From assembly GCA_965656495.1 (NCBI GenBank), contig CBFHKU010000001.1, positions 178,781 through 242,780 on the forward strand: a DNA stretch of 64,000 bases. The letters run 5' to 3'. A model generated the notes under the pieces. That model searched no databases. It saw only the letters and a program-made list of their open reading frames with translations, and had not been told where the DNA came from. The position numbers and the translations under genes are program-made. Origin of the DNA: Coraliomargaritaceae bacterium (GTDB taxonomy: Bacteria > Verrucomicrobiota > Verrucomicrobiia > Opitutales > Coraliomargaritaceae). Positions 20,087 to 40,156 of the stretch are shown one piece after another. How positions within the stretch are numbered: the first letter of the stretch is position 1; every line of letters starts with the position of its first letter.

Positions 20087-20136
20087 TCACCACCGCCCTG
20101 AAGGAAAAGATGCAAGACCTCTGCGCGGGGAATGCG
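20087..20136 (+). repeat. 50-bp direct repeat, copy 2 (detached trpA 3' end followed by in-frame TAA)
   Basis: Identical to 19268-19317. Next codon is TAA (20137-20139). Confidence 0.95.
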
Positions 20137-20162
20137 TAACCTTACTGTAACAATACCGTAAT
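20134..20162 (+). promoter_or_regulatory. Pho-box-like tandem repeat upstream of TonB-dependent receptor
   Basis: GCGTAAC-CTTA-CTGTAAC-AATA-CCGTAAT: GTAA(C/T) at 20136, 20147 and 20158 (11-bp period). Confidence 0.55.
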
Positions 20163-20297
20163 CTTTGTTACGCGCGGGTAATATTCCCAGCGCCAAAGGC
20201 TTAAATGTTTGTCCTGTGGCGGTTATTGATCAGCTAAGTTAGACTATAGTTATGATCACGTATTACGTAATGATACGTAGTATAAAGTTGTAGCTGT

Positions 20298-23200
20298 ATG
20301 AACACTATGAACGCTGCCTCTACGACAAAATTCTACTTAATTTTATTGGTATCCATCGCTCCCAGTTGCCTCTGGGCGCTGAAGTTTGAGATCCCGAAGG
20401 AACTTCGCGAGGAGGTAGCCGAGCAAAAGGCGGCCGAAGCCGCGGAGCTGGAGGCAGAGGTTGAAGCCCTGCAGTCGGGTGAGGCGGACGCCGTTGAGCC
20501 CGCTGAAGCAACCATGGAATTTGTGGTGGAAGCCCCTGCAGATGAAGCGGAGGCAGTCGACGCCGCACCAGCTGAGGTCGAGAGCGTCGAGGCCGCACCA
20601 GCGGAAGCCGCACCGGAAGAAGCCGCAGCCGTGGGTCGCATCGCGGGGCAGGTATTTGACAAAGAGACCGGCCAGCCCCTGCGTGGCGTTGCAATTGTGG
20701 TGGCCGACACCGACTTTGGAACTATCACGGACTCGCAGGGTCGCTATCGTTTGTCTGAAATTCCGGTCGGAAATTACACCTTGAACTTCATTAAGAGCGG
20801 TTTTCTTGAAGCGAACATTACCGACACGGTGGTTGTCGCCGGGGAGGTGAAGCAACTGGACTTTGCGATGCCGCCCCGCCCGGTGGATATGTCGGACGAG
20901 GTCTATGAACTACAGGACTTTACAGTGAGCGCCGATGAAGTAGTCAGTCAGAATGTGGCACTGCTCGCCTTGCGCCAGCAGTCGATCGCCTCGATTGACG
21001 CGCTGAGCTCAGAGGATTTTTCAAAGTTTGCAGCCAGCGATGTGGCGGAAGCGGTCACAAAAATGAGTGGGGCATCTTTGAGTGACGGCAAATACGTCGT
21101 AATGCGGGGGTTGAATGACCGCTACAACACGGTGCTCATCAATGGGGTGCGCTTGCCAAGCCCGGATCCCGACCGCAAAGCGATCGCATTGGATATTTTT
21201 CCCACAAGTATGATTCGTAGTGTAATAGCGCGAAAGACCTACACCTCAGACTTGCCTGGCGACTCTTCGGGTGGCTCAGTGGAGTTGCTGACAAAATCAA
21301 TTCCTGAGGAATCATTCTTTAAATTGTCGTACGGGATCGGCCGACAAGAGTCAAAAGGTGCAAGCAGTACTTTTCTGGCAGATCCGGAACAGGTTGATTT
21401 GGAGGGTTGGTTGAAAGGAGAGGACACGCGCGGATATTCCAATGCTGGGAGAAGCCTCATATCCGGCTATGGGCAGTCCGTGAGGGCGGTCAATTTCCCA
21501 TCGATGATTCCAATTGAAAGAAAACTACCCAATTGGGGTGATCGCAGTCTAAGCTTTTCGATGGGAGGATCCAAGGCATTGAATAACCAAGTCACTGCAG
21601 GTGCGATTTTTGGCACGAAAATTTCCACTAAGAGACGCTCCTCCTTCAAGGAATTTCACAAGAGTGTTATCAAGGACGGCCTGTTGGAACCGGACGTTTT
21701 TGCCTATAAAGAGGATGGTAAGGGGACGTTGAAGTCGGAGGAGGAATACAGCTACTCAACCCTCCTTGGTTTTGGTTTTGGGATCTCGGACCACACGAAT
21801 CTAAATTACAACTTTCTGCACACCAAAACTTTAAGCTCTACGGTCGAACGATCCGATTATGAAAAGTTATATACCAGTGAGCCTGTATTTGGCAACGGAC
21901 CCGGCAATTATGACTTAATAGATGTGGAACTTGCCAGCGAAGACCGGGAGTTGCGGGCACATCAGTTTTCCGGGGAGCACAAGTTTACTTTGGTGCGAGG
22001 TATCGAGTCGGATCTCAATTGGTACCACACGAAGGCTTTTATGGGGCAACTCGAGCCCGACCGCCGGATTATCGGAGAATTCATACCGACCCAATCCGCA
22101 GTAAATCCCGGTGACGCCGGGTTCAGTACCGACCCTGGCTTGCCGCCTGTGGCGCGCTTTCAACGCGAGACGCAACAAAACAGCATTATGTTTGGTGGGC
22201 AAGTAGAAAGCAGTGCTCGTGTAGGAGCTTGGACACTGAATTGGTCATTGGGTTTCGACTCAGAAGAATCCAGTCGTGATTTCCTGCAATTGGAATCGCT
22301 CATCGATGACAACAAAGTTTCTATCTACGATCAGGACTTCAGTAAGCTTCAATACGCCGCGATGCCAGTTGCTCAAATCTCAGCCTCGGGTCAGGCTTAT
22401 CAGATCAGCACCGGAGCGGGTGCCCTCCCTGGAGATACTTATGAAAACAGTGGACTGGAGTGGTATGCTGATGATTTTACCGAGGCCGATCAACTCATCC
22501 GTCATTTGTACACTGAAAATATCGCAAATATACAACCGGAAATTGATACTCTTCAGCTGGCGATAACGGGGCTCACGAATCAATACAACGCTGCTGTAGA
22601 CAATTTTGACACGAAAATTGACTTCTTGGACTTAAGATTACAGCGATACGAGCCAACATTGAATGTGAATCAGTTTGATCCGTCGGATCCTAGTTATGAC
22701 CCTTCCTTGAAGGATTCTGTGGATCCCTCGGTAAGAACTGCCGCCATTTCACTGGAACAGGCACATAGTACATTGTTGGGTGCCCAAAATGCTTTAAATT
22801 CCGATCCTGCTGTTTTGAAAGAGTCCGCACTAAAGCAGGACAAGACAAGCCTTGAGACTGAGCTGGCGAACTACGTTACGGAAGCGGACAATTTTCTGGC
22901 ATTAATCTCCCAAGCTCCTGCTCTGGCGATTGATCCCACGCAATTCCCAACATTCAACTTATTTGGAGATGAGCAATACATCCTCGAAACGCCGGCGGGC
23001 TTCACTTTGCACGGCGACAGTTCCCCGACGGTAAACACGCTGCAGTTTCCTTTGGTTGACGGTAAATTTCAGGCAAGGGGTATTGAAGAGGTGCGCAGTT
23101 TTTTCGCCTCGGGTGATATTAAGCGGGAAGATGTCCTGTTTTTTGACAGCATCCGTTTCGCCCTCGGCTTGCGCCAAGAGAGTAATTACCTCAATTACGA

Positions 23201-24377
23201 ATTGCTGGAAAATGATCCCGGGGAGCCAAACCCGGTATCGCGGGTGGGCGGCGGTACCTCGCCTAAGGTGGTCGCTGCCAAACCCATTGAGCAGGACGAT
23301 CAGCAATACTATTTTAATTTTTCATTTGAACTTCTCGAGAACCTGAAGCTCTCTGTTTCACACTCAAAAACCATTGCCAAGCCCACTTTTCGGGAAATTG
23401 CTCCCTTCCCGATCTTTAATTTGAGTGATCGCAGTTTTGAGATTGGCAATTCCGGTCTGACCCTGCGTTCGGATGGACAATACGATGATTGGTTGAATCG
23501 TACCGGGGATTTTGACCCCATCAGTGCCCCGCTTGGGGACGCTGATCCCTCGGTTCAAAAGCGCTTTGTTTTGCCTCTGGACTTTGCCGGTCTTGAAATT
23601 ACGGATGTTGAGAGTCATGACTTGCGCCTCGAGTTCTTTACGCCCCTCGACGGGCTGGTTTCAGTCGGTTACTTCAAAAAGACTATCGAAGCGCCTATTG
23701 AGCGGACTTTTGCCTATGATGTGAATGGTGTCCCGGTCAATACATTCATTAACAACAATAACGATGCCAGTCTCAACGGCGTGGAGTTTGAGCTTCAGCA
23801 AAACCTTGGATTTTTGGAGGAACATTTAATGTTTATTGCACCGCTTTCGTGGATTACTTTGGGTGGTAATTATACGCTGATTGATGCCGAAGTTGAGCGC
23901 TCAGACTTTGAGAAATCAGGTCTCACTTCCAGTAACGCTTTTGTCAACAACCTCATTGACCCGAAAGTCTTTACGGAGGGGAGTTACTCAATCAGGCCTC
24001 TGTATGACCAACCGGAATACACTGCCAACGCATTCATCAAATTCGATATTGAGCCAACCGGAACTAGCCTGACGTTATCTCAAAATTGGATAGGACGCCA
24101 ATTGGATCGGGTTGGCGGTCTTGACTCAGCAGGGAAAGGTGCGCCTGATTTATTTTGGGATCCTTTTAACTCCCTGAATTTTGTACTCGAACAAAAGCTT
24201 CGCGAGCACTGGAAGCTTCGTTTAAGTATAAAAAATCTAGGATCACCCACCCGGAAAATGTCGGAAAATGAGGACTTTTTCGATGCCCTCAATGTCGCTG
24301 AGGCGGATCGGCCTCCATTTCGGAGCAGTGTCTCCATTGATCCGAGTTACTCCATTACTTTATCGGGCTCATTTTAG
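20298..24377 (+). CDS. TonB-dependent outer-membrane receptor (carboxypeptidase-regulatory-like N domain, plug, barrel with large insertions)
   Basis: Signal peptide, GRIAGQVFDKETGQPLRG...TITDSQGRYRL, plug VVMRGLNDRYNTVLING...ALDIFP, SKTIAKPTFREIAP, C-terminal YSITLSGSF. Start could be 20307. Confidence 0.93.
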   Translation: MNTMNAASTTKFYLILLVSIAPSCLWALKFEIPKELREEVAEQKAAEAAELEAEVEALQSGEADAVEPAEATMEFVVEAPADEAEAVDAAPAEVESVEAAPAEAAPEEAAAVGRIAGQVFDKETGQPLRGVAIVVADTDFGTITDSQGRYRLSEIPVGNYTLNFIKSGFLEANITDTVVVAGEVKQLDFAMPPRPVDMSDEVYELQDFTVSADEVVSQNVALLALRQQSIASIDALSSEDFSKFAASDVAEAVTKMSGASLSDGKYVVMRGLNDRYNTVLINGVRLPSPDPDRKAIALDIFPTSMIRSVIARKTYTSDLPGDSSGGSVELLTKSIPEESFFKLSYGIGRQESKGASSTFLADPEQVDLEGWLKGEDTRGYSNAGRSLISGYGQSVRAVNFPSMIPIERKLPNWGDRSLSFSMGGSKALNNQVTAGAIFGTKISTKRRSSFKEFHKSVIKDGLLEPDVFAYKEDGKGTLKSEEEYSYSTLLGFGFGISDHTNLNYNFLHTKTLSSTVERSDYEKLYTSEPVFGNGPGNYDLIDVELASEDRELRAHQFSGEHKFTLVRGIESDLNWYHTKAFMGQLEPDRRIIGEFIPTQSAVNPGDAGFSTDPGLPPVARFQRETQQNSIMFGGQVESSARVGAWTLNWSLGFDSEESSRDFLQLESLIDDNKVSIYDQDFSKLQYAAMPVAQISASGQAYQISTGAGALPGDTYENSGLEWYADDFTEADQLIRHLYTENIANIQPEIDTLQLAITGLTNQYNAAVDNFDTKIDFLDLRLQRYEPTLNVNQFDPSDPSYDPSLKDSVDPSVRTAAISLEQAHSTLLGAQNALNSDPAVLKESALKQDKTSLETELANYVTEADNFLALISQAPALAIDPTQFPTFNLFGDEQYILETPAGFTLHGDSSPTVNTLQFPLVDGKFQARGIEEVRSFFASGDIKREDVLFFDSIRFALGLRQESNYLNYELLENDPGEPNPVSRVGGGTSPKVVAAKPIEQDDQQYYFNFSFELLENLKLSVSHSKTIAKPTFREIAPFPIFNLSDRSFEIGNSGLTLRSDGQYDDWLNRTGDFDPISAPLGDADPSVQKRFVLPLDFAGLEITDVESHDLRLEFFTPLDGLVSVGYFKKTIEAPIERTFAYDVNGVPVNTFINNNNDASLNGVEFELQQNLGFLEEHLMFIAPLSWITLGGNYTLIDAEVERSDFEKSGLTSSNAFVNNLIDPKVFTEGSYSIRPLYDQPEYTANAFIKFDIEPTGTSLTLSQNWIGRQLDRVGGLDSAGKGAPDLFWDPFNSLNFVLEQKLREHWKLRLSIKNLGSPTRKMSENEDFFDALNVAEADRPPFRSSVSIDPSYSITLSGSF

Positions 24378-24394: not shown

Positions 24395-24482
24395 AAAGGA
24401 CGCCGACCCGTGACGTCATTCGCCTATTTTGGGTTTCGATTTGCGATCGCAGATCAATCAAACGTAAATACAAACTACTCAA

Positions 24483-26237
24483 ATGAATAAAATTATAACA
24501 TCCCTAGTTGGTGTTGCTGCAATGGCTTCTGTAGCCTCTGCTGCTATCATCAAAAAGTCCGGTGATATCACCGAGTCCGAAACATGGACCAAAGACAACC
24601 AGTATATTCTAACTGATCTTACCTTCGTTAAAGACGGTGCGGTGCTTACCATTGAGGAAGGTACTATCATTCGTGCTGAGCCCAAGTCTGGTTCATCCGC
24701 TTATGACCCCGGTGCCCTCGTCATCACACGTACTGGTCAAATCGAAGCTGAAGGTACTCCATCCGAACCTATCATCTTCACCACTGCTGTGATCGACCAA
24801 GACCAAGATGGCCAGTATTCTGATGAATCCGTGGATTATGCTTCTGACATCGACTACAGCTCTGCCAACTTCCTTGACTCAGATCCTGCGGGTGATCCGC
24901 TTTCTCCCGGTTTCGGTTTCCTTACCACTGGCACCGGTGACGAGCACGTTGGTGTTGATGAATACCGCGGTCTTTGGGGTGGTGTGATCATTCTTGGTAA
25001 TGCTCCTACCAGCATCATTGAGATCTCTGGCGACACAGTCGTGAATACCAACAAGACTGCTCGTAACGACCTTGATGACATCTTTGAAGGGTTCATCGAA
25101 GGTCTCGATCCGGACGACACCCTTAATGACAACGGTATCTATGGTGGCTCCAATCCTAACGATAGCTCTGGTACTTTTAAGTACGCTTCGATCCGTCACG
25201 GCGGTACAAACATTGCAGCTGACAATGAAATCAATGGTCTTACCATGGGTGGCGTAGGTAACGGTACACTCATCGAATTCGTTGAGGTTTACTGTAATGA
25301 TGACGACGGCTTCGAATGGTTCGGTGGTACAGCTAACTCCCGCTACCTTGTTTCCCTTTACAACAATGACGACTCTTTCGACATTGACGAAGGTTTCACT
25401 GGTCTCGGCCAATTCTGGTTCTCCCTCCAGCTCAACGACGATGCCAATGGTGACCACGGTGGTGAGCACGACGCCACACACGGCGCTTTCGACTCCATCG
25501 ACGTTGCTTTCCTCAACGGTACCGACGTACTCGCTGCCGGTGTAGGTTACTTCACCGATGACAATGACGCAACGGGTGACGGTTACAATGGTCAATCAGA
25601 TCGTACTGGTTCTGGTATTTATGCTAACTACATTAATGCACAAGACCCAGATGCTGAAAAGCGTTACACTGCCGGTTCCGGTGCTGACCAAGGTCTTGGT
25701 CTTCCCATTGCTTATCCCACCATTTTCAACGCCACATATGTTGGTAGCTGGGATGCTGATGAGATGATCAAGTGTGATGACTCCTTTGGTGGTGATTACT
25801 TCAACTCCATCTTTGTTGGAACTGGTAACGATCTCGTTGACGTAAGCAATGACGCCCGCACCCGCGTGGAAGTTGGCGATTGCTCCTACATCAACAATTC
25901 CATCGCTTACGATATCAAGGGTTCTACTGGTGCACTTTCCGGCAGCCAACTCTCCAACTATGGCACCATGCAAACCATCCTCGCAAGCGCTGCAAACAAT
26001 AATGTCCTCGATGGCACCAACCCGTTTGCAACACTTACCAAGGATAACAGTCGCGCCAACGTTGATCCCCGCATTACCGATGCCGCTAATGCCAAGATCA
26101 CACCCGCTCCTGCGACTGCTACCTACTTCATTAGCGCTCCGTACCTCGGTGCCTTCGATCCTTCCCTCAACACCTTCTGGACTGATGGTTGGACCGTATT
26201 CTCCGCCAACTTCGACCTCGACGCTGGTAGCCGCTAA
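24483..26237 (+). CDS. Secreted acidic beta-helix-type protein of a family often found beside TonB-dependent receptors
   Basis: SPI signal (VASA). Motifs LTIEEGT, IEAEGT...PIIFT, GLWGGVIILGNA, YGGxxxNDSSGTFKY, NEINGLTMGGVG, DDDGFEWFGGT, YLGAF...WTDGWT. Confidence 0.75.
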   Translation: MNKIITSLVGVAAMASVASAAIIKKSGDITESETWTKDNQYILTDLTFVKDGAVLTIEEGTIIRAEPKSGSSAYDPGALVITRTGQIEAEGTPSEPIIFTTAVIDQDQDGQYSDESVDYASDIDYSSANFLDSDPAGDPLSPGFGFLTTGTGDEHVGVDEYRGLWGGVIILGNAPTSIIEISGDTVVNTNKTARNDLDDIFEGFIEGLDPDDTLNDNGIYGGSNPNDSSGTFKYASIRHGGTNIAADNEINGLTMGGVGNGTLIEFVEVYCNDDDGFEWFGGTANSRYLVSLYNNDDSFDIDEGFTGLGQFWFSLQLNDDANGDHGGEHDATHGAFDSIDVAFLNGTDVLAAGVGYFTDDNDATGDGYNGQSDRTGSGIYANYINAQDPDAEKRYTAGSGADQGLGLPIAYPTIFNATYVGSWDADEMIKCDDSFGGDYFNSIFVGTGNDLVDVSNDARTRVEVGDCSYINNSIAYDIKGSTGALSGSQLSNYGTMQTILASAANNNVLDGTNPFATLTKDNSRANVDPRITDAANAKITPAPATATYFISAPYLGAFDPSLNTFWTDGWTVFSANFDLDAGSR

Positions 26238-26252
26238 TTGCTGAATTCCACA

Positions 26253-26284
26253 GGGGCATCCTCGAAACATTTTGGGGATGCCCC
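26253..26284 (+). terminator. Strong intergenic hairpin (terminator or mRNA stabiliser)
   Basis: GGGGCATCCTCGAAA...TTTGGGGATGCCCC, with a weak U tail. Confidence 0.6.
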
Positions 26285-26319
26285 ACTTTCAACTTCATTC
26301 TTTTAGAATACTTCATAGT

Positions 26320-27165
26320 ATGAAAAAACTTTCTCTCATCGCCCTTACGGGCTCAATCCTCACTGGCACTGCCTTCGCTGATTTGACATCGGGTCAAGTC
26401 TCAGGTGGTTTGCTTGCCGGTTGGGATTTCTCCGGAGTATCCAATGTATCGAATGCGGTAAACGCCTATACAAATGATGTTTCCGGCATTTCTGGCTACA
26501 GTGGCACCATCAACACCAACGGAAGCCTGGGTTCTGACTCTTTGACTCAAATGCCCAGCAGTTCCGCAAATGTTCGTTTTGCTTCACTCGGACGTGCTGT
26601 TTCCATTAGCTCCTTCCGTGGACAAAAAGGTTTCGACCAAAGCTCCACTGTAACTCCTGGTACTGCCGCCTCTGGTCAGGTAGCGCTTAAGCTTAACAGT
26701 GGCTCTGCCTTCTCCTTCACTATCGCACTCAACCAAGCAGCTACGAATGTAGCTGTTGAGTTTGACTGGTTGATGGATGGAGCAGCAAACTTTGGTGATG
26801 GTGATGGCGACTGGCTTGATATTGAATACAGTGCTGGCGGCACTACAGAATCTAACTTTGTTTCTTTGAACAGCACAGATTCTGCAAGTGGAGTTGGTAC
26901 CGACTACTACGCTTTAGTATCAAATGAAGATAGCTGGTCTGTGTCCTCTTCTGGTGTAATCCGTACTGTTGATGACCAAGTTATTGATCTCACCAATGTT
27001 GGAAACGTGAAGTATGTCCGTTTCACCATCGACACTAGTGATATCGGTTCTAGTCTATATCTTGACAATATCTCTGTAACAGGTGTGGTTCCAGAACCAT
27101 CAACCTATGCGTTGCTTGCAGGTGTTATCGCTCTTTCCTTCTGTATCGTACGCAGAAAGAAATAA
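26320..27165 (+). CDS. PEP-CTERM surface protein, paralogue 1
   Basis: Signal peptide (TAFA), Ser/Thr/Gly-rich domain, C-terminal VVPEPSTYALLAGVIALSFCIVRRKK. Confidence 0.92.
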   Translation: MKKLSLIALTGSILTGTAFADLTSGQVSGGLLAGWDFSGVSNVSNAVNAYTNDVSGISGYSGTINTNGSLGSDSLTQMPSSSANVRFASLGRAVSISSFRGQKGFDQSSTVTPGTAASGQVALKLNSGSAFSFTIALNQAATNVAVEFDWLMDGAANFGDGDGDWLDIEYSAGGTTESNFVSLNSTDSASGVGTDYYALVSNEDSWSVSSSGVIRTVDDQVIDLTNVGNVKYVRFTIDTSDIGSSLYLDNISVTGVVPEPSTYALLAGVIALSFCIVRRKK

Positions 27166-27178
27166 TTAAAATAAATCT

Positions 27179-27211
27179 TGACCACAACTGGCTTTAAGCC
27201 AGTTGTGGTCA
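27179..27211. repeat. Perfect 33-bp palindrome between the two PEP-CTERM genes
   Basis: TGACCACAACTGGCTT-T-AAGCCAGTTGTGGTCA. Confidence 0.9.
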
Positions 27212-27224
27212 TTACCTTATAAAA

Positions 27225-28088
27225 ATGAAAACTAAAATATTTGCTCTAAGTTTCTTAATTTCTTCAACAACTGCTTTTGCCGACCTGACCAGTGCTGCAA
27301 TCGCAGGCGATTTAATTGCAGGGTTTGATTTTTCGGAAATCGGCTCTGTGTCAAATGATGTGGATGGCTTTGCTTCCTCCAGTGATGGACTAGGTAGTGA
27401 TATTGCTACAATCTACACCGATGGTACATTTGGTTCTAATTCATTTAATCAAGTTAGTGATGGTAGCGCTCAGGTTCGCTTCGCAACCTTTGGTCGTGCT
27501 GCACGGACAGGAACTTATCGCTTTGACAAAGGCTTCGACACTACCACTGATGCGACACCTGGCGGTGCTGCAACTGGTCAAAACAGTCTGTTATTCAAAA
27601 ATCTCGCTTCAACTACTTCATTTGTGATTGGACTCAATCAAGGCGTAGACAATACCAAGGACCTAGTCATAGAGTTTGATTATATGACCAAAAATGTTGC
27701 TGGTTTTGATTTGTTCGACATCTATTACAGTGCAGATGGTTCATCTTACACTGAACTCGTTCCGAGTAGCGTGGGAAACAGATTTGGCGATGGTCCAGAA
27801 TACACTTTGTTCCCTCCCAGTGCTGACAATACTTGGGCAACTACTTCTTCTGGTAATCGTTTTTATGATGATTTGGATGGACAAGACACCGGTGTAATTA
27901 CCATAGAACAAGAGGATTTTACTACTATTAAGTACGTAAGATTCGATCTTCTTGCCACAAACACTTCAGAAGAATTTTATCTTGATAATATCTCCATCAC
28001 TGGATCTCAGGTGCCGGAAGCATCGACTTATGCGCTCATCGCCGGTGCACTTGCACTTGGATTTGCTGTAATTCGTCGCCGTAAATAA
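27225..28088 (+). CDS. PEP-CTERM surface protein, paralogue 2
   Basis: Signal peptide (TAFA-DLTS, as in paralogue 1), C-terminal QVPEASTYALIAGALALGFAVIRRRK. Confidence 0.92.
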   Translation: MKTKIFALSFLISSTTAFADLTSAAIAGDLIAGFDFSEIGSVSNDVDGFASSSDGLGSDIATIYTDGTFGSNSFNQVSDGSAQVRFATFGRAARTGTYRFDKGFDTTTDATPGGAATGQNSLLFKNLASTTSFVIGLNQGVDNTKDLVIEFDYMTKNVAGFDLFDIYYSADGSSYTELVPSSVGNRFGDGPEYTLFPPSADNTWATTSSGNRFYDDLDGQDTGVITIEQEDFTTIKYVRFDLLATNTSEEFYLDNISITGSQVPEASTYALIAGALALGFAVIRRRK

Positions 28089-28108
28089 GTATAGTAATGC
28101 TTTTTCTG

Positions 28109-28141
28109 AAGTCGACAGGCGATATGCCTGTCGGCTTTTTT
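28109..28141 (+). terminator. Intrinsic terminator after PEP-CTERM pair
   Basis: AAGTCGACAGGC-gatat-GCCTGTCGGCTTTTTT. Confidence 0.85.
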
Positions 28142-28168
28142 GTCTAAAAATACAAAAGCTGGAATTGG

Positions 28169-31230: not shown

Positions 31231-31995
31231 TTAGCGAAGGAATTGTGGAAGTTTTCCGGATGGATTATGAACTTTATTGCTGCGGCGGATCTTTAAGGGC
31301 ACGTATTTTTTGTCGGTGGCATTGGAAGCCCCTGACCCAGAGGTATTTTCAATTAGGTTATTTTCGGTTCCTGATGGGGTGTTTGAAGCGAATGCAGTCG
31401 TGCCTCGGTAGAGAAAGTTTAGGGTCGACCTATTAGAATGCGGAGATTCGTTTGTGTTTGCTGTACGAGTGGTATTGTTGATGGTGGCAGAATAATCACT
31501 AATGATTACCTGCCCCCGATTCGAAGCCCCATCCGACAAGTCAACATTCTCAGTATTGGCGTCCTGTATTCGAACTCCTGAAGGAGTGCTGCCATTTTGT
31601 CGCCCACCTGCCAATGGGAGATTGTAGCTTTTTGTTCGGGATACAATTAGAGTATCGTATTTGTGCCCCTTGTAATCATAGGTGATGGTTTCGCTGAGGG
31701 GATCAAAACCGACTATGGTGAAACCATTAATATTTTCACCCAATGAAAGCCAAAGTGATTTTTTTGATTTCTTATCATAAATGCTGAACTTGTAGTCGTC
31801 ATTAAGAACGATGAATCCCTTGAGTTCAAACTGTTGCTTTTGGGGATCTACTGAAGGTTTGGGGGCTGGGGGTTTGGCCAGCGGAATGGGTTCTTTATAC
31901 GGTACAAATGGAGAGAATTGCGCGATGCCACCATTGCTACTCAAGACTGCCATCGCTACCGCACCCGCACAAGCATATGTAAAAATTTTGGACAT
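31231..31995 (-). CDS. Hypothetical exported protein with GspC/PilP-HR-like small beta domain
   Basis: SPF...Pro-rich...FELKGFIV...FSIYD...WLSLGENINGFTIVGFD pattern, then a disordered tail. Confidence 0.5.
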   Translation of the reverse strand: MSKIFTYACAGAVAMAVLSSNGGIAQFSPFVPYKEPIPLAKPPAPKPSVDPQKQQFELKGFIVLNDDYKFSIYDKKSKKSLWLSLGENINGFTIVGFDPLSETITYDYKGHKYDTLIVSRTKSYNLPLAGGRQNGSTPSGVRIQDANTENVDLSDGASNRGQVIISDYSATINNTTRTANTNESPHSNRSTLNFLYRGTTAFASNTPSGTENNLIENTSGSGASNATDKKYVPLKIRRSNKVHNPSGKLPQFLR

Positions 31996-32012: not shown

Positions 32013-32798
32013 CTATCCCTCTAGTGATTGGTTTTTGGGTTTATTTTGCTCAAAGTACTCATCGTATATACCTACACCTTTTGTAATATTTTCAATCCGC
32101 AAAATTGAATCTCGTGCTTTCGCAGAACTGGTACGGATCTTTGTAGGATGTTTTATACCATCTACATCCGTATAATCTTCAAGCCATTTCGTCGCTACCA
32201 TTGAGCCATCCTTTATTGTTTCTATTGATGATACAAAGAAATCCTTGTCGTTCAAAGAAACTACATAGTAATTATCCTTCGTTTTCCTTTCAGGGAAAAC
32301 CGCAATCTTGTATTGGTAAGTGTTGTCAGGTCTCTTAACCGCTTCAGTGATCTCCAGTTTGTCGGCTGTCTGCATATAGTGCATGAGTTCGGGCAGGATG
32401 ATTGACTCCGCAATTAAATCGTCGCGAGCACTATCATCCAGAGGCTTTTTGATGAGAGGCATGGTTCCGCTTGGGCGAATCGCCATCCAGGCATTCTCAT
32501 TGTCCAAAGCGCGTATAAACTGCAATGTCTCATCTTCCTTTCCATATGGGACCGGCACAGTTAACGTTACGCGTATTTGTTTGGGTATTTTTTTGACCAT
32601 TACGAAGTCGACCGGGCTATCGTCGCCCTGAGCGATAGTGCCGGAAAGCTTAATGCTGGCAACTTCATTCCACGAGCGCCAACCACCCATCGCAGTTACG
32701 TGCCCTTGAAGGATTTTTCTCAGCTCCAATGCCTCACTGCGTCCGGTTGTAACCGTTACCGTGGCAAGAAAAGATAGTATTAATAATGATATCTTCAT
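32013..32798 (-). CDS. Exported LolA-like / outer-membrane lipoprotein-sorting-family protein
   Basis: Signal peptide. ILQGHVTAMGG...W..VASIKLSGT...KKIPKQIRV...DYTDVDGIKHPTKI...IYDEYF pattern. Confidence 0.6.
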   Translation of the reverse strand: MKISLLILSFLATVTVTTGRSEALELRKILQGHVTAMGGWRSWNEVASIKLSGTIAQGDDSPVDFVMVKKIPKQIRVTLTVPVPYGKEDETLQFIRALDNENAWMAIRPSGTMPLIKKPLDDSARDDLIAESIILPELMHYMQTADKLEITEAVKRPDNTYQYKIAVFPERKTKDNYYVVSLNDKDFFVSSIETIKDGSMVATKWLEDYTDVDGIKHPTKIRTSSAKARDSILRIENITKGVGIYDEYFEQNKPKNQSLEG

Positions 32799-32936
32799 TT
32801 TAAAATGCCTACATCAAAGTGAAGGCATAAATGTTTATCCAGTGTAATAATGTAAATTTAAGGTTACGCATGAACGATAAAATTTGCCTAAAGAAGCCTT
32901 CCATTTTAGCTTTATTGGTAATTAAATATCTAGCTT

Positions 32937-33719
32937 ATGATAAAGTATATAACAGTGTTAATGGCCTTAGGCGTACAGGTAGCTCACTCCTCGGAGACGT
33001 TCAAAGAGCGAATCCTTCTTGCAGGTTGGGACTTTGCATCTCCATCCTCTATTTCTGTTGCTACTGTCAATTTCCACGCTGAGCGTGGAACGGGTGCTGG
33101 CGCCGCCACTTTGGAGACTACGGGTCGATTTGGATCAACGCCAATGCGGCAGATTGGTGAACCCAAGCCTCAAGTAAGATTTATTGGTCACGGTCGAAAA
33201 GCGACCGCACCGCAGGCAAATGCAAACTTTGATAAATCCTGGACTTCCTTTCCCCCGGCGGTCGGTAACGGGCAACAATGCTTAGCTTTCTTGAATTTTT
33301 CTGAAGACTTTAGTTTTGTTTTAAAATTGGCAAGCTTGCCGGAACTGTACAGTCGTCATCAGTTGCTGGTTATGTTTGATTGGTTTAATTCGGTAAGCAC
33401 AGGTGCTCCTCTCGGTGACTTTCTAAATATTTCCTACAGCAGCGATGGCGTAAGTTGGACGGCTTACAAGCCCAATGGAGTCAATTCTTTACTGGCGCCG
33501 GAAACTTACTTTGCCTTTGAAAGTACCGATCGTTGGGCCTCATCCAATGAGAAAAGCGCGATACACAAAATGCTTGATGGACAGGAAAACAGTAACCTTG
33601 TTTTGCCCGCGAAAGTTAACAATCAGCCGATCACTTTTATTCGTTTTGAAGTCACTGCGCCGGAAACTCCCAAGGGGATGACGTGCTTTGACAACCTTGC
33701 GGTTTACCTCGTTAAGTAA
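32937..33719 (+). CDS. Secreted paralogue 3 of the PEP-CTERM passenger domain, without sorting signal
   Basis: Shares LLAGWDF, TxGxxGS, QVRFxxxGR, FD, GQ, FDW, YSSDG, LDGQ, IRF and DN motifs with 26320-28088. Ends at YLVK with no PEP/TM/basic tail. Confidence 0.8.
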   Translation: MIKYITVLMALGVQVAHSSETFKERILLAGWDFASPSSISVATVNFHAERGTGAGAATLETTGRFGSTPMRQIGEPKPQVRFIGHGRKATAPQANANFDKSWTSFPPAVGNGQQCLAFLNFSEDFSFVLKLASLPELYSRHQLLVMFDWFNSVSTGAPLGDFLNISYSSDGVSWTAYKPNGVNSLLAPETYFAFESTDRWASSNEKSAIHKMLDGQENSNLVLPAKVNNQPITFIRFEVTAPETPKGMTCFDNLAVYLVK

Positions 33720-33756: not shown

Positions 33757-33811
33757 GATCCGGTTCCCGTGTAGCGGGCCCGGTCATGTCGCTTCGTTCG
33801 GAACACCGAAC

Positions 33812-33848
33812 GCGCCGGAGGGGTTAACCCTGACTCTTGGCGGCGCGT
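33812..33848. repeat. 37-bp imperfect direct repeat, copy overlapping the TPR gene stop
   Basis: Minus strand reads RAAKSQG-stop plus 12 nt. Period is 92 bp to the other copy. Confidence 0.85.
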
Positions 33849-35197
33849 TCCACGCGGGCGGTGTAGTCCTCGAGGTTCTGCTCGGGTTTAAGTTGGAGGG
33901 CGCGTTTGAGGAGGGGGAGGGCATCGCGGTATTTGGCGTTGCGGACGAGGGTTTGACCGTGGGCGATGAGGGCCTGGCGTTCGAAGGCGTTGATCTTGGC
34001 GGCTTGTTCGTAGCGGTTGATGGCCTCGGGAAGCATGTCCTTGTCGGCGTAGTAGTTTGCGAGCTCGATGATTGCTTCGCCGTTGAGGGCGTCGCGTTCG
34101 ACGATCTTGTTGAGGATCACCACGGCGGCATCATCATTGCCCTCGGCGCGGGCAATCTTGGCTTCCTGATTGAGGAGTTCAAGGTCCTGCTCAGGGCTCA
34201 GAGTAAGCGCGTTATTTTTGCGGATGTCTTTAATGAGGTTGGCGGCCTGCTCGAAGTTGGTGGAGCGGGTGAGGATGTTGGTGGCGCGGAGGAGGGCATC
34301 GACATCCTGCGGTTGTGCCATCTCGACCGCGCTGAGGTAGGCGTCAAGGGCAAGGTCGGGAATGGTGTTGTTCATGTAGATGTCGCCGAGAAGGGTGAGG
34401 GTGGAGAGCTCGGCTTTGCCCATGCGGCGGACGACTTCAAGGTTTTGCGCGGCGCGGAGGGATTGTTCGTTGCCGATGAAGGCGTTGCTCTGGAGGAGCC
34501 AGAAGTCGCTGTTGTCGGGCTCGTCTTGTAGGAGGGTGTCAAAAAGGCTGATGGCTTCGTTGTAGCGTTCGGTTTCGAGGAGGCAACGGGCGAGGCCGAT
34601 TTTCCAGTCTTTCTGGTCGGGTTGAATGAGGATGGCCTGGCGGTAGGCTGCTTCGGCGGGGTAGTATTTGCCTTCGGTGAGGTATCCGTAAGCGAGGAGG
34701 CCGTAGGCGCGTCCGTCGACTTCACCGAGTTCGAGGGCTTTGGCGATGCTGGGGATGGCGTCCTTGAAGTTGCCGCCTTGAACCTGCACGAGGCCGAGGT
34801 TTTTGTAGGCGCGGCGGAAGTTGGGGTATTTTTTGACGGCGGTTTTGTAGAATTGTTCAGCCTCTTTGAGGTTGCCTTCCTGGAAGTAGAGGTTGGCGAG
34901 GATGAAATCGAAGGCGGCGCTGCTGCTGGTCTTAACCTGAGGGCGGAGCTGGGCGATCGCGGCCTTGGGGCTGGCTTTGATGAGGTCGATCAAAGCGCGG
35001 AGGGCTTCCTTTTCCTCGTCGGAAATTTTCGGCTCGTATCCGATGAGGAAGGCATAGCTGCCGATGAAGGTTTTGACGAATTCGGGATCATTCCAAAGTT
35101 CGGCGCCGGGATTTGTGGCGGAGCGCTGGGCGTGGAGGCTGGAGGCGTTGAGCGCCAGTCCGAGGACCAGAAGGAGGAGGCAGTGGATCGTTTTCAT
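33824..35197 (-). CDS. Periplasmic TPR protein (TtpD-like position in TonB operon)
   Basis: Signal peptide (SLHA), many TPR motifs, last gene after tonB. Confidence 0.85.
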
Positions 35198-35226
35198 GCT
35201 GTTCTTGGATTTGTGGAAATTAATAT

Positions 35227-35886
35227 TTAACTAATGGTGTAAGGGATGGTGACGCGGGTACGGGTCTTGACTTTGCGTCCGTCTTTTTCGCCGGGGGTGA
35301 ATTTCCAGCCGCGGATCGCGTCGATGGTGGGTTTCTCAAAGACGGGGTCGGAGGAGCGGGTGATGGTCACCTGCATGACGTCGCCTTTTTCGTCGATAAT
35401 GAACTCAGCGGTAACGCGGCCCTGCAGGCCTTGGCGGCGGGCGGCGGGCGGGTAGCGGGGGGAGCCCTGGCGGCGGGGCATCGGTTTGTTTTCGAGGTCA
35501 TTGATGTCAAAGATATCGAGTCCGCCGAGATCCTTGGCATTTACGTCAAAAGTGGGGAGGGCAAAGTCTCCGGCGAGGGAACCACCGGTGCCGGGTTCAA
35601 GCGCCATGTCGAGTTGCTCAAGGGAAATGGGTGGCGGTGGGGTTTCGAGCTCAGGGGGCGGCTCTTCCTCTTCCGGTTCCGGCGGCGGGGGTGGTTCCTC
35701 GGGCGGCGGTGGTGGAGGCGGCGGCGCGATCTCTAGTCCTTCGATGGATTCAGGCGCCTTCTCGTACTCCATGAAGAGCTGCGTCAAGGGAATCGCCAGA
35801 AAGAGGAGAAAGCTGATGGCAATGCCAAACTGAGCACTCTTTCGGAGTGTGTCTTTACCTTTGGGCGGGTGGTAAACTTTGGCCAT
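35227..35886 (-). CDS. tonB: Energy transducer TonB
   Basis: TM anchor, poly-Pro/Glu linker, [16 protein letters not shown]...WKFTPG TonB_C domain. Confidence 0.93.
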
Positions 35887-35909
35887 GAAAAGAGGAGCAG
35901 CGCTGGGAT

Positions 35910-36308
35910 CTAGCGTTTGGTGGAGAAATTGATGGATTTGGCGCCGGCGAGTTTGGCTTCGCCATAGACGCGGGCAAAGATGCCGTGGTTGGCGCCTTCA
36001 TCCGCTTGGATGATGACGGGGAGGTCTTCGTTGAGGGTGAGGCGTTTCACGATGGGGGAGACGCCGCTGATGCCGATATCGCGCCCGCCATAAATGACTT
36101 TGTTGTCTTTTGTGACGGCGATGAGGATGCTGTTTTTCTCGAGTTGGACAGCTGCGGCGGCTTCGGGTTTGTTGACCTCGACCCCGGTTTCCTCGACGAA
36201 GACGGTGGTCACGATGAAAAAGATGAGGAGGATGAAGACCATGTCGATCATGGGCGAGAGGTTGATCTCGACATTATCGTTGTCGTCGGAGGCAAGGTTG
36301 CGGCGCAT
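35910..36308 (-). CDS. exbD: Biopolymer transporter ExbD
   Basis: [33 protein letters not shown]. Confidence 0.95.
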
Positions 36309-36351
36309 GGTATTGGAGTTTGAAGTTTGTCGTTTGGAAGACCTCGATTGA

Positions 36352-36954
36352 TTAATCGAGTTTTAATTTGGTAAGGCTGATGGATTCGATGCGGGCAAGG
36401 GCGGCTTCAACGGCGTGCTTGCGGCGGCGAATGATGAGCGTCAGGAAGATGCCCGGGAGGGCTATAAAGAGTCCGGTTTGGGTGGTTATGAGGGCCTCGG
36501 AAATACCTTCGGCAACTTTGGCAGCGGTTTCGGAGCCACCGCCACTGGAGATTGCGGCAAAGGTCCCCAGCATACCGATGACGGTCCCGAGGAGCCCCAT
36601 GAGCGGTGCGGCGGCGACGAGGGTGGTGAGAAAGATGAGGCGGCGCTCGATGTTATGGAGCATGGACTGCCGGATTTCCTCGAAGCGGTTGCGCACATGC
36701 TTGGAGCTGGAGACGTTGTCCTGGGTATAGCGGATGATTTCGCCGACGCGCCCGGAAGCCTTTTGCGGTTGGTCGACCCAATTGTTCCATTCATCTTCAC
36801 GGCCGAGCTGGATATTTCCTTTGCTCAGGAACAGGAGGAGTTGGATGCCATTGGTGTAGATAAGGAGCGCCAGCAGGAAGAGGGGCACCATGACCCATCC
36901 GCCGCTTTTCCAGATGTCAGCGCATTTAAAGAATATATCTAAGATGGAATCCAT
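36352..36954 (-). CDS. exbB: ExbB proton channel
   Basis: [39 protein letters not shown]. Confidence 0.92.
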
Positions 36955-36981
36955 AGAACCCGTAGGTTGAAGGCCGGAGCG

Positions 36982-38385
<1,404 letters not shown>

Positions 38386-38406
38386 GGTGCTGCTTAAAGT
38401 TGGGCG

Positions 38407-39168
38407 TTATTGGATGCTGGCAGGGATTTCAACAAACTGGATTTCTTCGATTCCTTCGTAGATATCGAGGAGTCGCTTGATTTCTGGTCCGACACCTTCG
38501 ATTTGTGTCCATTCCCAGGAATCGGCGCCGGGCTTGCCAACACCGGCGTAGGAACCAGAGTTGTCAACGAAGTAGGCTTGGGCGAGGCCCCAGTAGAGGG
38601 TCGTGACTTGCACGACTTTGCCCTCGGCGATTTCGCGGGATTCGTTGCTTAGGGTGATGGTCGAGTTGAATTTATCTGCCTGGCTCAGGATGCCGACGAC
38701 ATTTTGAACGCGCTCACCGAGGGAGAGTTTGGTGTTATTCGAATCGTTGGGGAGGCGGCGAATGAGGGGTTTGATTTTTTCCACAAGCGGCTCGGGGAGG
38801 GTCGCGAGGATCGCTTTAACCTTTGTTTCGAGCGCTCCAATATTTGCTTTAACCACCGAGGCGGCGGCGGTTTGTCTATCCTTTTCCTCTGAAAGGGCAG
38901 CGCGGTCCGCGTCGGCGGCGGTCGCGGATGCTTCGAGGTCGTCAATCGCGGCATTCATCCGGTCCAACTCTCTTTGAAGCAGCACTTGGGTGTCTTCCAG
39001 GATGGACTTTTCCAGACGCCAGTCGCTTTTTTCCTCGGAGAGGATTTGCTTGGTTTCAACCCACTGGTCGAGGACATTACGGGTTTCCCCGATGGGGTCA
39101 TCGCCATATGCCGGAAGGATGCAAACTGCGGCTGCAATTGCACAGATGAATTTGTTTTTAGTTTTCAT
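38407..39168 (-). CDS. DUF3450-like (TtpB-like) periplasmic coiled-coil protein
   Basis: Signal peptide, long heptad region, LYWGLAQAYF...W motif, first position in the ttp-type TonB operon. Confidence 0.75.
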   Translation of the reverse strand: MKTKNKFICAIAAAVCILPAYGDDPIGETRNVLDQWVETKQILSEEKSDWRLEKSILEDTQVLLQRELDRMNAAIDDLEASATAADADRAALSEEKDRQTAAASVVKANIGALETKVKAILATLPEPLVEKIKPLIRRLPNDSNNTKLSLGERVQNVVGILSQADKFNSTITLSNESREIAEGKVVQVTTLYWGLAQAYFVDNSGSYAGVGKPGADSWEWTQIEGVGPEIKRLLDIYEGIEEIQFVEIPASIQ

Positions 39169-39240
39169 GAATTTTGTTTTGGGCTCAAATTTGTGCTTTA
39201 GAGGGGTGCTGAGTCTAAATCGCTTAATTAAAATGGGTTA

Positions 39241-40095
39241 CTAATCCTCATCTGTTTCCTCGTCTTCTTCCACGGGCAACAGTTCGGGTGTAGTAATTTT
39301 TGCATCCGAATTTTTCAAGTTTCTTTTTTCTTTCTCGTCGAGCAGTTGGCAAAATTGCTTGTAGTCGATGATTTCGATCTGCTCGTCTTCATGCTCCACA
39401 ATGGCGGTTAGTGATTCCACCCAGTCGCCGGAGTTGAGGTAATGGATTCCCTCAATCATTTTGTCATCGGGGGTATGGATATGCCCGCATATAATGCCTT
39501 GGCAATCGCGGCGCTGAGCGAAGTTTTGAAGTTGGTCCTCATATTTGCCAACAAAGCTGACCGCGCTCTTCACTTTGGCTTTGATGACTTTGCTGAGGGA
39601 AAAATACTCTTTGCCGCGCCAGGAACGGTAATGGTTGTAAAGTCGGTTGATCTTGAGGAGGGTCTGGTAGCCGATGTCGCCCAAGACTGCCAGCCACTTG
39701 TGATTGACGGTCACGGCGTCAAAGCCGTCGCCGTGGACGACCAAATATTTGCGGTCCCGGCTCTCGAAAAAATATTCGTCTACAATGCGGAGTTTGCCGA
39801 AGTACAGCGGCAGGAAGCGGGAGAGGACGTCGTCATGATTGCCGCGCACGTAGATGACCTCGGTGCCGTATTTCTCGATTTTCTTGAGGATGAGTCGAAC
39901 AAAGCGGGTGTGTTTCTTGGTCCAGCCCCCTTTGCGGGCGAGGCTCCAGCCGTCAATGATATCGCCATTGAGGATGAGTCGCTCGCAATGGGTGTGTTTC
40001 ATGAAATGATTCACTTCATCAATTTTGCAATCCAGGGTGCCCAAATGAACATCCGAGAGAATAATTGTTTTGAAGCTGAGTGTGGTTCGTTTCAC
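39241..40095 (-). CDS. Metallophosphoesterase, PlcP-like phospholipase C / LpxH-like family
   Basis: LSDVHLG, NGDIIDGW, GNHD, HGDGFD, CGHIH, YLNSGDWVESLTAIVEH. GTG start. Confidence 0.82.
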   Translation of the reverse strand: MKRTTLSFKTIILSDVHLGTLDCKIDEVNHFMKHTHCERLILNGDIIDGWSLARKGGWTKKHTRFVRLILKKIEKYGTEVIYVRGNHDDVLSRFLPLYFGKLRIVDEYFFESRDRKYLVVHGDGFDAVTVNHKWLAVLGDIGYQTLLKINRLYNHYRSWRGKEYFSLSKVIKAKVKSAVSFVGKYEDQLQNFAQRRDCQGIICGHIHTPDDKMIEGIHYLNSGDWVESLTAIVEHEDEQIEIIDYKQFCQLLDEKEKRNLKNSDAKITTPELLPVEEDEETDED

Positions 40096-40127
40096 AAGAT
40101 TTGCAGTGCGAGGGAGTGTTTCTATCG

Positions 40128-40156
40128 GTGACGAGATTGAGGCAAAATTGTGAGGA
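40128..40156 (-). promoter_or_regulatory. Third Pho-box-like repeat upstream of the phosphoesterase-TonB operon
   Basis: Minus strand TCCTCAC-AATT-TTGCCTC-AATC-TCGTCAC. 11-bp period, degenerate. Confidence 0.4.

What the first reader, a model, noticed from the sequence alone, without database searches (positions are those of the whole stretch)
20134..40156. Candidate phosphate-starvation surface-capture and uptake system: giant TonB receptor, secreted beta-helix protein, PEP-CTERM paralogues, glycosyl ligase, dedicated TonB motor and PlcP-like enzyme
Seen: two convergent arms. The left arm is a 1359-aa TonB-dependent receptor, an acidic secreted protein, two PEP-CTERM proteins and a Wzy_C enzyme. 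The right arm is a metallophosphoesterase followed by DUF3450-like, long ExbB, ExbB, ExbD, TonB and TPR. Four exported accessory genes lie between the arms, and 11-bp-period repeats precede both arms. Established: PlcP-type phospholipases remodel membrane lipids under P limitation, PhoB-type regulators bind 11-bp-period repeats, and the ttp-exbB-exbD-tonB-TPR order is the Vibrio TonB2-type layout. Inference: one co-regulated module in which exosortase-anchored, possibly glycosylated surface proteins and a secreted partner capture an organic or mineral P source and deliver it to a receptor with its own motor. It would be a PEP-CTERM-based analogue of SusCD/PUL systems, with no SusD-like gene recognisable here. 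I do not know of this combination being described. The substrate cannot be read from the sequence.
Basis: partly seen in the sequence, partly recalled or inferred. Interest (0 to 1): 0.85.

Follow-up and report, generated by a model that had tools for sequence, protein, structure and literature searches.

The report
Phosphate-starvation uptake cassette, PEP-CTERM variant
This marine bacterium carries a version of a transporter-plus-surface-protein pair that other bacteria switch on when phosphate runs short; here the surface protein has no lipid anchor and travels with a membrane-anchored partner that may tether it, and what the system takes up is still unknown.

Summary
All 16 genes are real. 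The core is known: a non-SusC TonB-dependent transporter (TBDT) plus a PF28492 beta-helix protein, homologous to the phosphate-starvation pairs ElpS/CC0171 (Caulobacter), Fjoh_0545/0546 (Flavobacterium PUSIV) and the BT4055/BT4056 'lid' pair. Pho regulation is well supported: a motif learned from 27 relatives' pstS promoters ranks the sites before the TBDT and the beta-helix gene 3rd and 4th genome-wide, behind only pstS and its porin. The region is not one unit. The left arm is a low-GC, exchangeable cassette, missing from this site in three same-genus genomes. The right arm is a core TonB2/ttp operon with plcP, linked to the cassette in 27 of 60 loci. The Wzy ligase, second PEP-CTERM gene and plcP are sporadic neighbours. 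The Opitutales variant is new in detail: the beta-helix protein has no lipobox, and it travels with a CBM-like PEP-CTERM protein (35 of 60 loci) and a paralogue of the gene beside gspD (32 of 60). Tethering in trans and a dedicated export adaptor are inferred; no complex could be folded. The scan reported this cluster before in another genome (e1-7725876). New variant of a known kind; interest 0.45.

The parts
20134..20155 (+). Pho-box-like direct repeat (11-bp period), distal site of the TBDT promoter
   Evidence: 22.8 bits with the pstS-trained matrix, rank 3 genome-wide; three GTAAC/T half-sites
20164..20185 (+). Second Pho-box-like repeat, conserved before TBDT orthologues
   Evidence: top genome-wide hit (20.2 bits) of a motif learned de novo from 13 relatives' TBDT upstream regions, G000 excluded
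20298..24377 (+). Non-SusC TonB-dependent transporter, 1359 aa, with a ~200-aa lineage-specific insertion at about residues 690-900
   Evidence: Pfam Plug and CarboxypepD_reg; TIGR04056 SusC 29.5 vs cut-off 368; longer than all 57 relatives' ORFs, 894-1311 aa
24375..24396 (+). Pho-box-like repeat before the beta-helix gene
   Evidence: 18.9 bits, rank 4 genome-wide; 13 of 20 orthologous upstream regions score 12 or more
24483..26237 (+). ElpS/FII/BT4056-family right-handed beta-helix protein (PF28492 Beta_helix_4), Sec signal peptide, no lipobox
   Evidence: model pLDDT 88, weak Foldseek hits only to beta-helices; 28-32% identity to homologues in elpS and PUSIV gene layouts
26320..27165 (+). 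PEP-CTERM protein 1, CBM-like beta-sandwich domain
   Evidence: TIGR02595; model pLDDT 69.5, Z about 9 to CBM28 and a gingipain adhesin domain; positional orthologue in 35 of 60 loci
27225..28088 (+). PEP-CTERM protein 2, paralogue (40% identical) of protein 1, variable between strains
   Evidence: only 56% identical in G035, where flanking genes are 90-97% identical; replaced segment in a close strain
28108..28138 (+). Intrinsic-terminator-like hairpin closing the beta-helix/PEP-CTERM unit
   Evidence: 14-bp stem plus T run; two RNA-library contigs end at 28077 and 28141
28169..30331 (+). Wzy_C (O-antigen-ligase-like) membrane protein, sporadic passenger
   Evidence: PF04932; 1 of 60 loci by blastp, plus G006, G266 and a split copy in G028
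30323..31228 (-). Conserved exported accessory protein 'acc301', no known family
   Evidence: 34 of 60 loci; no Pfam hit, no PDB hit at E below 0.2, no named homologue
31231..31995 (-). Accessory protein 'acc254', paralogue of the gene directly after gspD in the type II secretion operon (GspC-HR/PilP-like lead)
   Evidence: 33.7% identity, E 1.5e-12 to C4:149766; operon order; 32 of 60 loci; Atlas leads 0.79-0.82
32013..32798 (-). Accessory protein 'acc261', weak LolA-like match
   Evidence: PF17131 21.4 bits, below cut-off 30; 16 of 60 loci
32937..33719 (+). Anchor-less paralogue of the PEP-CTERM beta-sandwich domain
   Evidence: 28.8% identity to both PEP proteins; alignment A2
33824..39168 (-). 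TonB2/ttp-type energizer operon: DUF3450 (38407-39168), long ExbB/TtpC-like (36982-38385), ExbB, ExbD, TonB, TPR (33824-35197)
   Evidence: Pfam; gene order as in PMC6957404 passages
39241..40095 (-). PlcP-like metallophosphoesterase
   Evidence: 47.7% identity to the P. aeruginosa gene in the plcP-agt layout, GNHD motif; no LpxH hit in PDB
40187..40208 (+). Weak Pho-box-like site about 113 bp upstream of plcP (intergenic, shared with the divergent gene)
   Evidence: 13.4 bits; 5 of 8 orthologous regions score 12 or more, two of them near-identical strains

Best explanation
The left arm is an exchangeable cassette encoding an ElpS-family beta-helix protein and its TonB-dependent transporter, likely switched on by PhoB under phosphate starvation and predicted to import an organic-phosphorus substrate, with energy likely supplied by the neighbouring TonB2-type operon. 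Shown: gene content, homology, fold class, Pho-type repeats, conserved neighbours and compositional foreignness. Inferred: phosphorylated PhoB activates two promoters (before the TBDT and before the beta-helix gene). The beta-helix protein reaches the surface and caps the transporter as a SusD-like lid. The PEP-CTERM beta-sandwich protein is exosortase-processed and sits beside it. The TtpB-TtpC-ExbB-ExbD-TonB-TPR motor energises uptake but probably also serves other receptors. PlcP separately frees phosphate from the cell's own lipids; it shares the stimulus, not the pathway. The Wzy ligase and the second PEP-CTERM gene are passengers. Likeliest substrate class: anionic phosphoester polymers or their fragments (nucleic acid, phospholipid head groups, phosphorylated glycans), by analogy with PUS systems; not determined here.
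For: Homologues in the elpS-TBDT-gspC-gspD layout (Sphingomonas, Indioceanicola) and the phoR-phoB / TBDT-lipoprotein layout (4 Flavobacterium loci, 28-30% identity, E 1e-24 to 1e-27). These match layouts described as phosphate-starvation induced (PMC2996285 abstract, introduction and first results; PMC8115612 passages and Table 1). Lid proposal for the family: bioRxiv 2023.03.17.533168 passages. Alteromonas plasmid: phoB-phoR-pstS-2OG-(beta-helix)-TBDT-DUF3450-ExbB-ExbB-ExbD-TonB-TPR; Pseudoalteromonas: ttp operon-(beta-helix)-TBDT. pstS-trained matrix ranks window sites 3 and 4 after pstS and its porin. phoBR and pstSCAB-phoU are in the genome (best NCBIfam hits, below equivalog cut-offs). 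14 of 60 cassettes lie within the fetched 6-33 kb of pst, porin or phoBR genes; 59 of 60 have the TBDT; 27 of 60 have a ttp arm. RNA-library contigs from 3 studies cover the beta-helix and PEP genes.
Against: No expression data under defined phosphate levels. The named ElpS, BT4056 and Fjoh_0546 sequences were not retrieved, so family assignment rests on homologues in matching gene layouts. No phosphatase or nuclease gene was recognised in the cassette, so the substrate is open. The beta-helix protein lacks the lipobox that ElpS, FII and BT4056 have. The ttp operon has no Pho-type site of its own in this genome, and only 9 of 18 relatives have one. 33 of 60 loci show no ttp arm within the fetched region (some contigs are short). 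Pho half-sites are nearly palindromic and intergenic DNA is AT-rich, so scores near 13 bits are borderline.
Confidence: 0.7

Rival explanations
1. All 16 genes form one co-regulated, functionally coupled module with a dedicated motor, a dedicated glycosylation ligase and PlcP.
For: The convergent TBDT...TPR layout recurs in G004, G009, G010, G012, G017, G028, G183, G330, G397 and G632. There is a weak Pho-type site before plcP. G006, G035, G028 and G266 also carry the ligase.
Against: The ligase is in 1 of 60 loci by blastp and follows a terminator. plcP is in 1 of the 14 loci where DUF3450 was in view (several with under 1 kb visible beyond it), but it is adjacent to DUF3450 in 13 of 61 genomes, most without a linked cassette. 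trpA converges directly on TPR in G001, G002 and G005. The arms differ in GC3.
Confidence: 0.12
2. A carbon-driven glycan-uptake locus (PUL analogue): a pectin-lyase-fold protein and CBM-like surface proteins capture an algal polysaccharide.
For: Beta-helix fold with weak similarity to lyases, GH28 and tailspikes; CBM-like fold of the PEP domain; the genome is rich in sulfatase-like genes (listing, read by eye).
Against: Pho-type boxes at both promoters; neighbours are pst/phoBR in 14 of 60 loci; no CAZyme recognised in the window cassette; homologues in F. johnsoniae were induced by phosphate depletion only (PMC8115612 passages). Fold matches are generic (E at least 1.9e-3; Z about 9).
Confidence: 0.08
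3. A phosphate-induced surface coat or diversifying surface antigen: the beta-helix and PEP-CTERM proteins remodel the cell surface (mineral or polymer binding, phage evasion), and import is secondary.
For: The beta-helix tree does not follow genus: G000, G002/G004 and G005 fall in three clades. PEP domains are hypervariable and swapped between close strains. FI reached 18.7% of the Flavobacterium exoproteome.
Against: The TBDT is adjacent in 59 of 60 loci, and in 621 genera in print; TonB motors are recurrently linked across phyla.
Confidence: 0.1

Closest known systems
ElpS (CC0170) plus TBDT CC0171, Caulobacter crescentus (PMC2996285)
   Same: Homologous beta-helix family next to a same-strand TBDT; phosphate-starvation context; link to type II secretion (there gspC-N follows directly, here a paralogue of the gspD-adjacent gene sits in the cassette).
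   Different: ElpS is a lipoprotein and lies before its TBDT. Here the protein has no lipobox, follows the TBDT, and is followed by PEP-CTERM genes and accessory genes. The T2SS operon is elsewhere.
Flavobacterium johnsoniae PUSIII/PUSIV: Fjoh_3857/3856 (FI) and Fjoh_0545/0546 (FII) (PMC8115612)
   Same: TBDT then pectin-lyase-fold partner, beside phoBR (also beside phoBR in G002, G005, G012, G027, G154 and G452); non-SusC transporter.
   Different: FI and FII are lipoproteins; no PEP-CTERM partner or ttp operon is described there; the TBDT is about 920 aa in the Flavobacterium homologues vs 1359 aa here.
BT4055/BT4056 putative TBDT-lid pair (bioRxiv 10.1101/2023.03.17.533168)
   Same: Same family pair, proposed as a non-SusD lid; conserved adjacency in 621 genera.
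   Different: Lids in that study are lipoproteins; the Opitutales protein would need another surface anchor.
Vibrio TonB2/TonB3 (ttpB-ttpC-exbB-exbD-tonB-ttpD) systems (PMC6957404)
   Same: Same six-gene order, starting with DUF3450.
   Different: Vibrio TonB2 is Fur/iron controlled. Here 9 of 18 relatives have a Pho-type site before DUF3450, and plcP often leads the operon.
PlcP (PA3219; S. meliloti) lipid-remodelling phospholipase (bioRxiv 10.1101/2021.04.14.439775; PMC9239053)
   Same: 42-48% identity over 82-85% of the protein; GNHD-type metallophosphoesterase; weak Pho-type site.
   Different: No adjacent agt glycosyltransferase; it precedes a TonB operon instead.

Membership tests
ElpS/FII/BT4056 lid plus TBDT pair | Homology to the family | tested here: met
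   28-38% identity, E 1e-20 to 1e-36, to proteins in elpS-TBDT-gspC and phoBR-TBDT-lipoprotein layouts. The three named proteins themselves were not retrieved (one search returned no B. thetaiotaomicron, Caulobacter or F. johnsoniae locus).
ElpS/FII/BT4056 lid plus TBDT pair | Adjacent same-strand non-SusC TBDT | tested here: met
   59 of 60 loci
ElpS/FII/BT4056 lid plus TBDT pair | Pectin-lyase-like beta-helix fold | tested here: met
   PF28492 Beta_helix_4, Atlas score 0.98; model
ElpS/FII/BT4056 lid plus TBDT pair | Lipoprotein (lipobox cysteine) | tested here: not met
   No cysteine in the N-terminus. Of 36 orthologues with a PEP partner, 2 matched a loose lipobox pattern, and those look like ordinary signal peptides.
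ElpS/FII/BT4056 lid plus TBDT pair | Induced by phosphate starvation | not testable with these tools
   Only the proxy was tested: Pho-type boxes
ElpS/FII/BT4056 lid plus TBDT pair | [quoted passage not shown] | not testable with these tools
SusCD / PUL | SusC-family TBDT (TIGR04056) with a SusD lipoprotein | tested here: not met
   29.5 bits vs cut-off 368; no SusD Pfam hit
TonB2/ttp system | DUF3450 - long ExbB (TtpC) - ExbB - ExbD - TonB - terminal gene, in one direction | tested here: met
TonB2/ttp system | Fur/iron regulation | not tested
   No Fur-box scan was run
PlcP | Sequence similarity to PlcP rather than LpxH | tested here: met
   47.7% to the P. aeruginosa gene upstream of a glycosyltransferase (PA3219-PA3218 layout; locus tag inferred, not read), 42% to an S. 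meliloti homologue; no PDB LpxH hit. The GNHD vs GNRD distinction is recalled.
PlcP | Adjacent agt glycosyltransferase (usual, not universal) | tested here: not met
   Neighbours are DUF3450 and a spermidine-synthase-like gene
PEP-CTERM / exosortase | C-terminal PEP motif, transmembrane helix, basic tail; exosortase in the genome | tested here: met
   TIGR02595 over cut-off for both proteins; 2 exosortases; about 20 other PEP-CTERM genes among 29 pattern hits
Exosortase-associated O-glycosylation ligase | Match to the dedicated family model (TIGR03097, recalled) and co-occurrence with its targets | tested here: inconclusive
   No such model listed at E up to 0.01; generic Wzy_C only; rare in cassettes
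GspC-HR / PilP secretin partners (for acc254) | Homology to GspC/PilP and position in a secretin operon | tested here: inconclusive
   The paralogue follows gspD in G000 and lies within 1.5 kb of gspD in 9 of 13 non-cassette loci. Atlas named neighbours are HofP, T2SSC, PilP and XpsN at 0.79-0.82 (lead only). No Pfam, PDB or hhalign match.

The most novel reading that the evidence does not exclude
In marine Opitutales an anchor-less ElpS-type lid is tethered to the cell surface in trans by its exosortase-processed PEP-CTERM partner, and the pair is exported through the type II secretion system by a cassette-encoded GspC/PilP-like adaptor. This would give PEP-CTERM proteins a defined job as sortase-anchored scaffolds for TonB-dependent nutrient capture. 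Basis: none of 37 beta-helix proteins with a downstream PEP-CTERM partner has its own C-terminal extension, against 18 of 23 without one. That split maps to only one or two events on the tree, so it is suggestive and not statistical.
Probability: 0.25. Interest if true: 0.72.

Novelty: new variant of a known kind. Interest (0 to 1): 0.45.

Why it matters
The ElpS/FII/BT4056 pair is one of the most widespread phosphate-starvation outer-membrane systems, and no substrate for it was found in the papers seen here. This locus extends it to marine Verrucomicrobiota (73 of 301 Opitutales genomes searched), supplies a usable Opitutales Pho-box matrix, and shows repeated coupling to TonB2-type motors across phyla. 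The PEP-CTERM partner and the secretin-operon paralogue offer a concrete, testable answer to two open points: how a non-lipidated lid is held at the surface, and what some PEP-CTERM proteins do.

Tried and rejected
Complex prediction of the beta-helix protein with PEP-CTERM protein 1: tool not available, so there is no result either way. No PDB sequence relatives for the beta-helix protein, acc254, acc261 or the metallophosphoesterase, and only E of 0.2 or worse for acc301. Foldseek of the beta-helix model gave nothing at E up to 0.001. hhalign of the acc254 alignment against one Sphingomonas GspC: no match. PF28492 is not in the local Pfam copy, so named control genomes could not be tested. 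The genome-contig scan with an N-terminal fragment of a Bacteroides homologue found 11 loci but none of the three model organisms. Sigma-70 promoter and terminator counts were not above shuffles. The TBDT-trained matrix site at 32830 (13.3 bits) was not confirmed by the pstS-trained matrix. RNA contig depth was not used to rank genes. The careful tree did not finish, so the quick tree was used; the G026 and G614 rows were left out as truncated or broken. Literature searches for a Verrucomicrobiota description found none; subscription papers are not covered and supplements were not read. 'Giant receptor' as a family trait was rejected: relatives are 894-1311 aa. LipL48 as a relative was a recalled lead and was not tested.
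Full report
Observation. The genome belongs to a marine organism by its DNA holders; the closest Atlas clusters of the beta-helix protein are mostly Verrucomicrobiota, and placing it in Opitutales is my inference from gene content. It encodes PhoB/PhoR-like proteins and pstSCAB-phoU with an OprO/P porin (best NCBIfam hits PhoB and PstS, below their cut-offs), 10 plug-domain receptors, one DUF3450 operon, further ExbB/ExbD sets and two exosortases.

The core pair is a known kind. The 584-aa protein is PF28492 Beta_helix_4 and folds as a right-handed beta-helix (pLDDT 88). Its homologues lie in the order protein-TBDT-gspC-gspD-gspE in Sphingomonas and Indioceanicola, which is the elpS layout of Caulobacter (PMC2996285; abstract, introduction and first results read). 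In four Flavobacterium genomes they lie as phoR-phoB / TBDT-lipoprotein, the PUSIV layout whose genes are induced by phosphate depletion (PMC8115612; passages and Table 1). A preprint proposes this family (BT4056, Fjoh_0546, ElpS) as a non-SusD lid adjacent to its TBDT in 621 genera (10.1101/2023.03.17.533168; passages). I could not retrieve the three named proteins, so membership rests on 28-38% identity to proteins in those layouts. One feature of the described members is not met: there is no lipobox.

Regulation. A motif learned de novo from 13 relatives' TBDT upstream regions is an 11-bp direct repeat (information content 19.9 vs about 13 for shuffled DNA); its best hit in the whole genome is window 20164. 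An independent motif from 27 relatives' pstS promoters (G000 and its closest relative left out) ranks pstS 25.7, the porin 24.1, window 20134 22.8 and window 24375 18.9 bits; the 99th-percentile background is 8.7, or 13.8 in AT-rich DNA. Some training promoters come from genomes where pstS neighbours the cassette, a small circularity. Sites of 12 bits or more occur before 13 of 20 beta-helix orthologues, 9 of 18 DUF3450 genes (not in G000) and 5 of 8 plcP genes. The window's plcP site (40187-40208, 13.4 bits) is borderline. Independently of motifs, 14 of 60 cassettes lie near pst, porin or phoBR genes, and an Alteromonas plasmid carries phoB-phoR-pstS, the beta-helix gene, the TBDT and the ttp operon in one run.

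Two units, not one. The beta-helix protein was found in 24 of 61 relatives and 73 of 301 order-level genomes. I fetched 60 loci from 57 genomes: 20 from the first search and 40 chosen from the second for score and contig length. The profiles for the accessory genes were built from the first 20, so those counts lean upward. Within 6-33 kb: TBDT 59, PEP-CTERM gene directly downstream 35 (a 36th pattern hit, G154, was in another frame and was dropped), acc301 34, acc254 32, acc261 16, ttp-type arm 27, Wzy 1, plcP 1. In the 40 new loci alone: PEP-CTERM 18, acc301 18, acc254 15. Same-genus G001, G002 and G005 have trpA converging directly on TPR, and G002 and G005 carry the cassette elsewhere, next to phoB. 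GC3 is 0.31-0.51 from the TBDT barrel to 33.7 kb and 0.62-0.78 on both flanks. Same-genus beta-helix proteins fall in three clades (quick tree). The ttp operon is far more common than the cassette (47 of 61 over cut-off), and plcP abuts it in 13 of 61 genomes. The left arm is therefore an exchangeable cassette and the right arm a core operon. Their recurrent linkage, also in Alteromonas and Pseudoalteromonas, suggests functional coupling without exclusivity.

What is particular to this lineage. (a) The beta-helix protein has a plain signal peptide. None of 37 with a PEP-CTERM partner has a C-terminal extension, whereas 18 of 23 without one carry a 56-164-residue extension; many more distant homologues carry PF18962, which some sources name a T9SS sorting domain. 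The split needs only one or two events on the tree, and 5 proteins have neither, so tethering in trans remains a hypothesis. (b) The PEP domain is a CBM-like beta-sandwich (pLDDT 69.5; Z about 9, tied among CBMs and adhesin domains), which gives a fold and no function. It is hypervariable. (c) acc254 is a paralogue of the gene that follows gspD in the genome's type II secretion operon, and such paralogues lie beside gspD in 9 of 13 non-cassette loci. Atlas leads point to HofP, GspC and PilP at 0.79-0.82, but Pfam, PDB and hhalign give no match. This echoes the elpS-T2SS link and the PhoB control of the Caulobacter T2SS (PMC11208175; passages). (d) The TBDT's size comes from a ~200-aa insertion absent from most relatives.

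Passengers. The Wzy_C gene follows a terminator-like hairpin and is found otherwise only in G006 and G035 (near-identical cassettes), G266 and, split, G028. Glycosylation of the PEP-CTERM proteins is possible but untested. The metallophosphoesterase is a PlcP homologue (47.7% to the P. aeruginosa gene in the plcP-agt layout). PlcP acts on the cell's own lipids according to 10.1101/2021.04.14.439775 and PMC9239053 (passages), so it shares the trigger rather than the uptake route.

Expression. Four of five RNA-library runs were laid (3 studies). Their contigs cover the beta-helix and PEP genes at 90-100% identity, and two contigs bridge them (24449-28077 with a replaced segment; 25680-28141). 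Contigs do not show a single transcript, a level or a condition.

Verdict. The system works like ElpS/CC0171 and PUSIII/IV and is a non-lipidated variant of that pair; it is not a SusCD member. Eight literature searches found no description of the PEP-CTERM-linked form; supplements were not read. An earlier scan note (e1-7725876) describes the same cluster in another genome; it agrees but is not independent support. Novelty: new variant of a known kind. Interest 0.45.

Noticed in passing
window 19352-20028 and 20090-20137: A vapBC-type toxin-antitoxin pair sits between trpA and the cassette, followed by an exact copy of about 50 bp of the trpA 3' end that abuts the Pho box. This looks like an insertion at the trpA end with a target duplication. 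It is absent in G004, G010 and G016, where trpA directly precedes the TBDT.
   Followed up: partly
L035 (G035:C9): A genome of another genus carries the cassette at 82-97% protein identity (PEP2 56%), including the start of TPR: recent transfer or a mis-binned contig.
   Followed up: no
L092:2876-3988 (G000:C6:45775-46887): A 370-aa membrane protein with no Pfam hit lies after the phosphate porin. Its orthologue sits between the TBDT and beta-helix genes in G027 and beside the cassette in G009 and G026: a candidate unannotated phosphate-related transporter.
   Followed up: partly
L039, L171, L172, L177: The PEP-partner beta-sandwich domain also occurs with other C-terminal tails (a Trp/Tyr-rich tail; a tail ending in FFR...) that resemble the extensions fused to beta-helix proteins in other families: possible undescribed verrucomicrobial sorting domains.
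   Followed up: no
window 16905-18374: PTS EIIA - DacZ_P - DAC fusion (diadenylate-cyclase-like) upstream of trpA, conserved in same-genus relatives.
   Followed up: no
window 41024-42718: A stand-alone gspE/pilB-type ATPase lies next to the locus; the genome's gspG-to-gspD run on C4 showed no ATPase in the stretch examined.
   Followed up: no
L062 (G005:C28) and L056 (G001:C81): plcP is split or stop-interrupted in two same-genus genomes and missing beside the ttp operon in G002 and G004, which have a more distant copy elsewhere.
   Followed up: no
L081 and L078: The Bacteroides finegoldii homologue of the beta-helix gene is split into two frames in both records seen.
   Followed up: no
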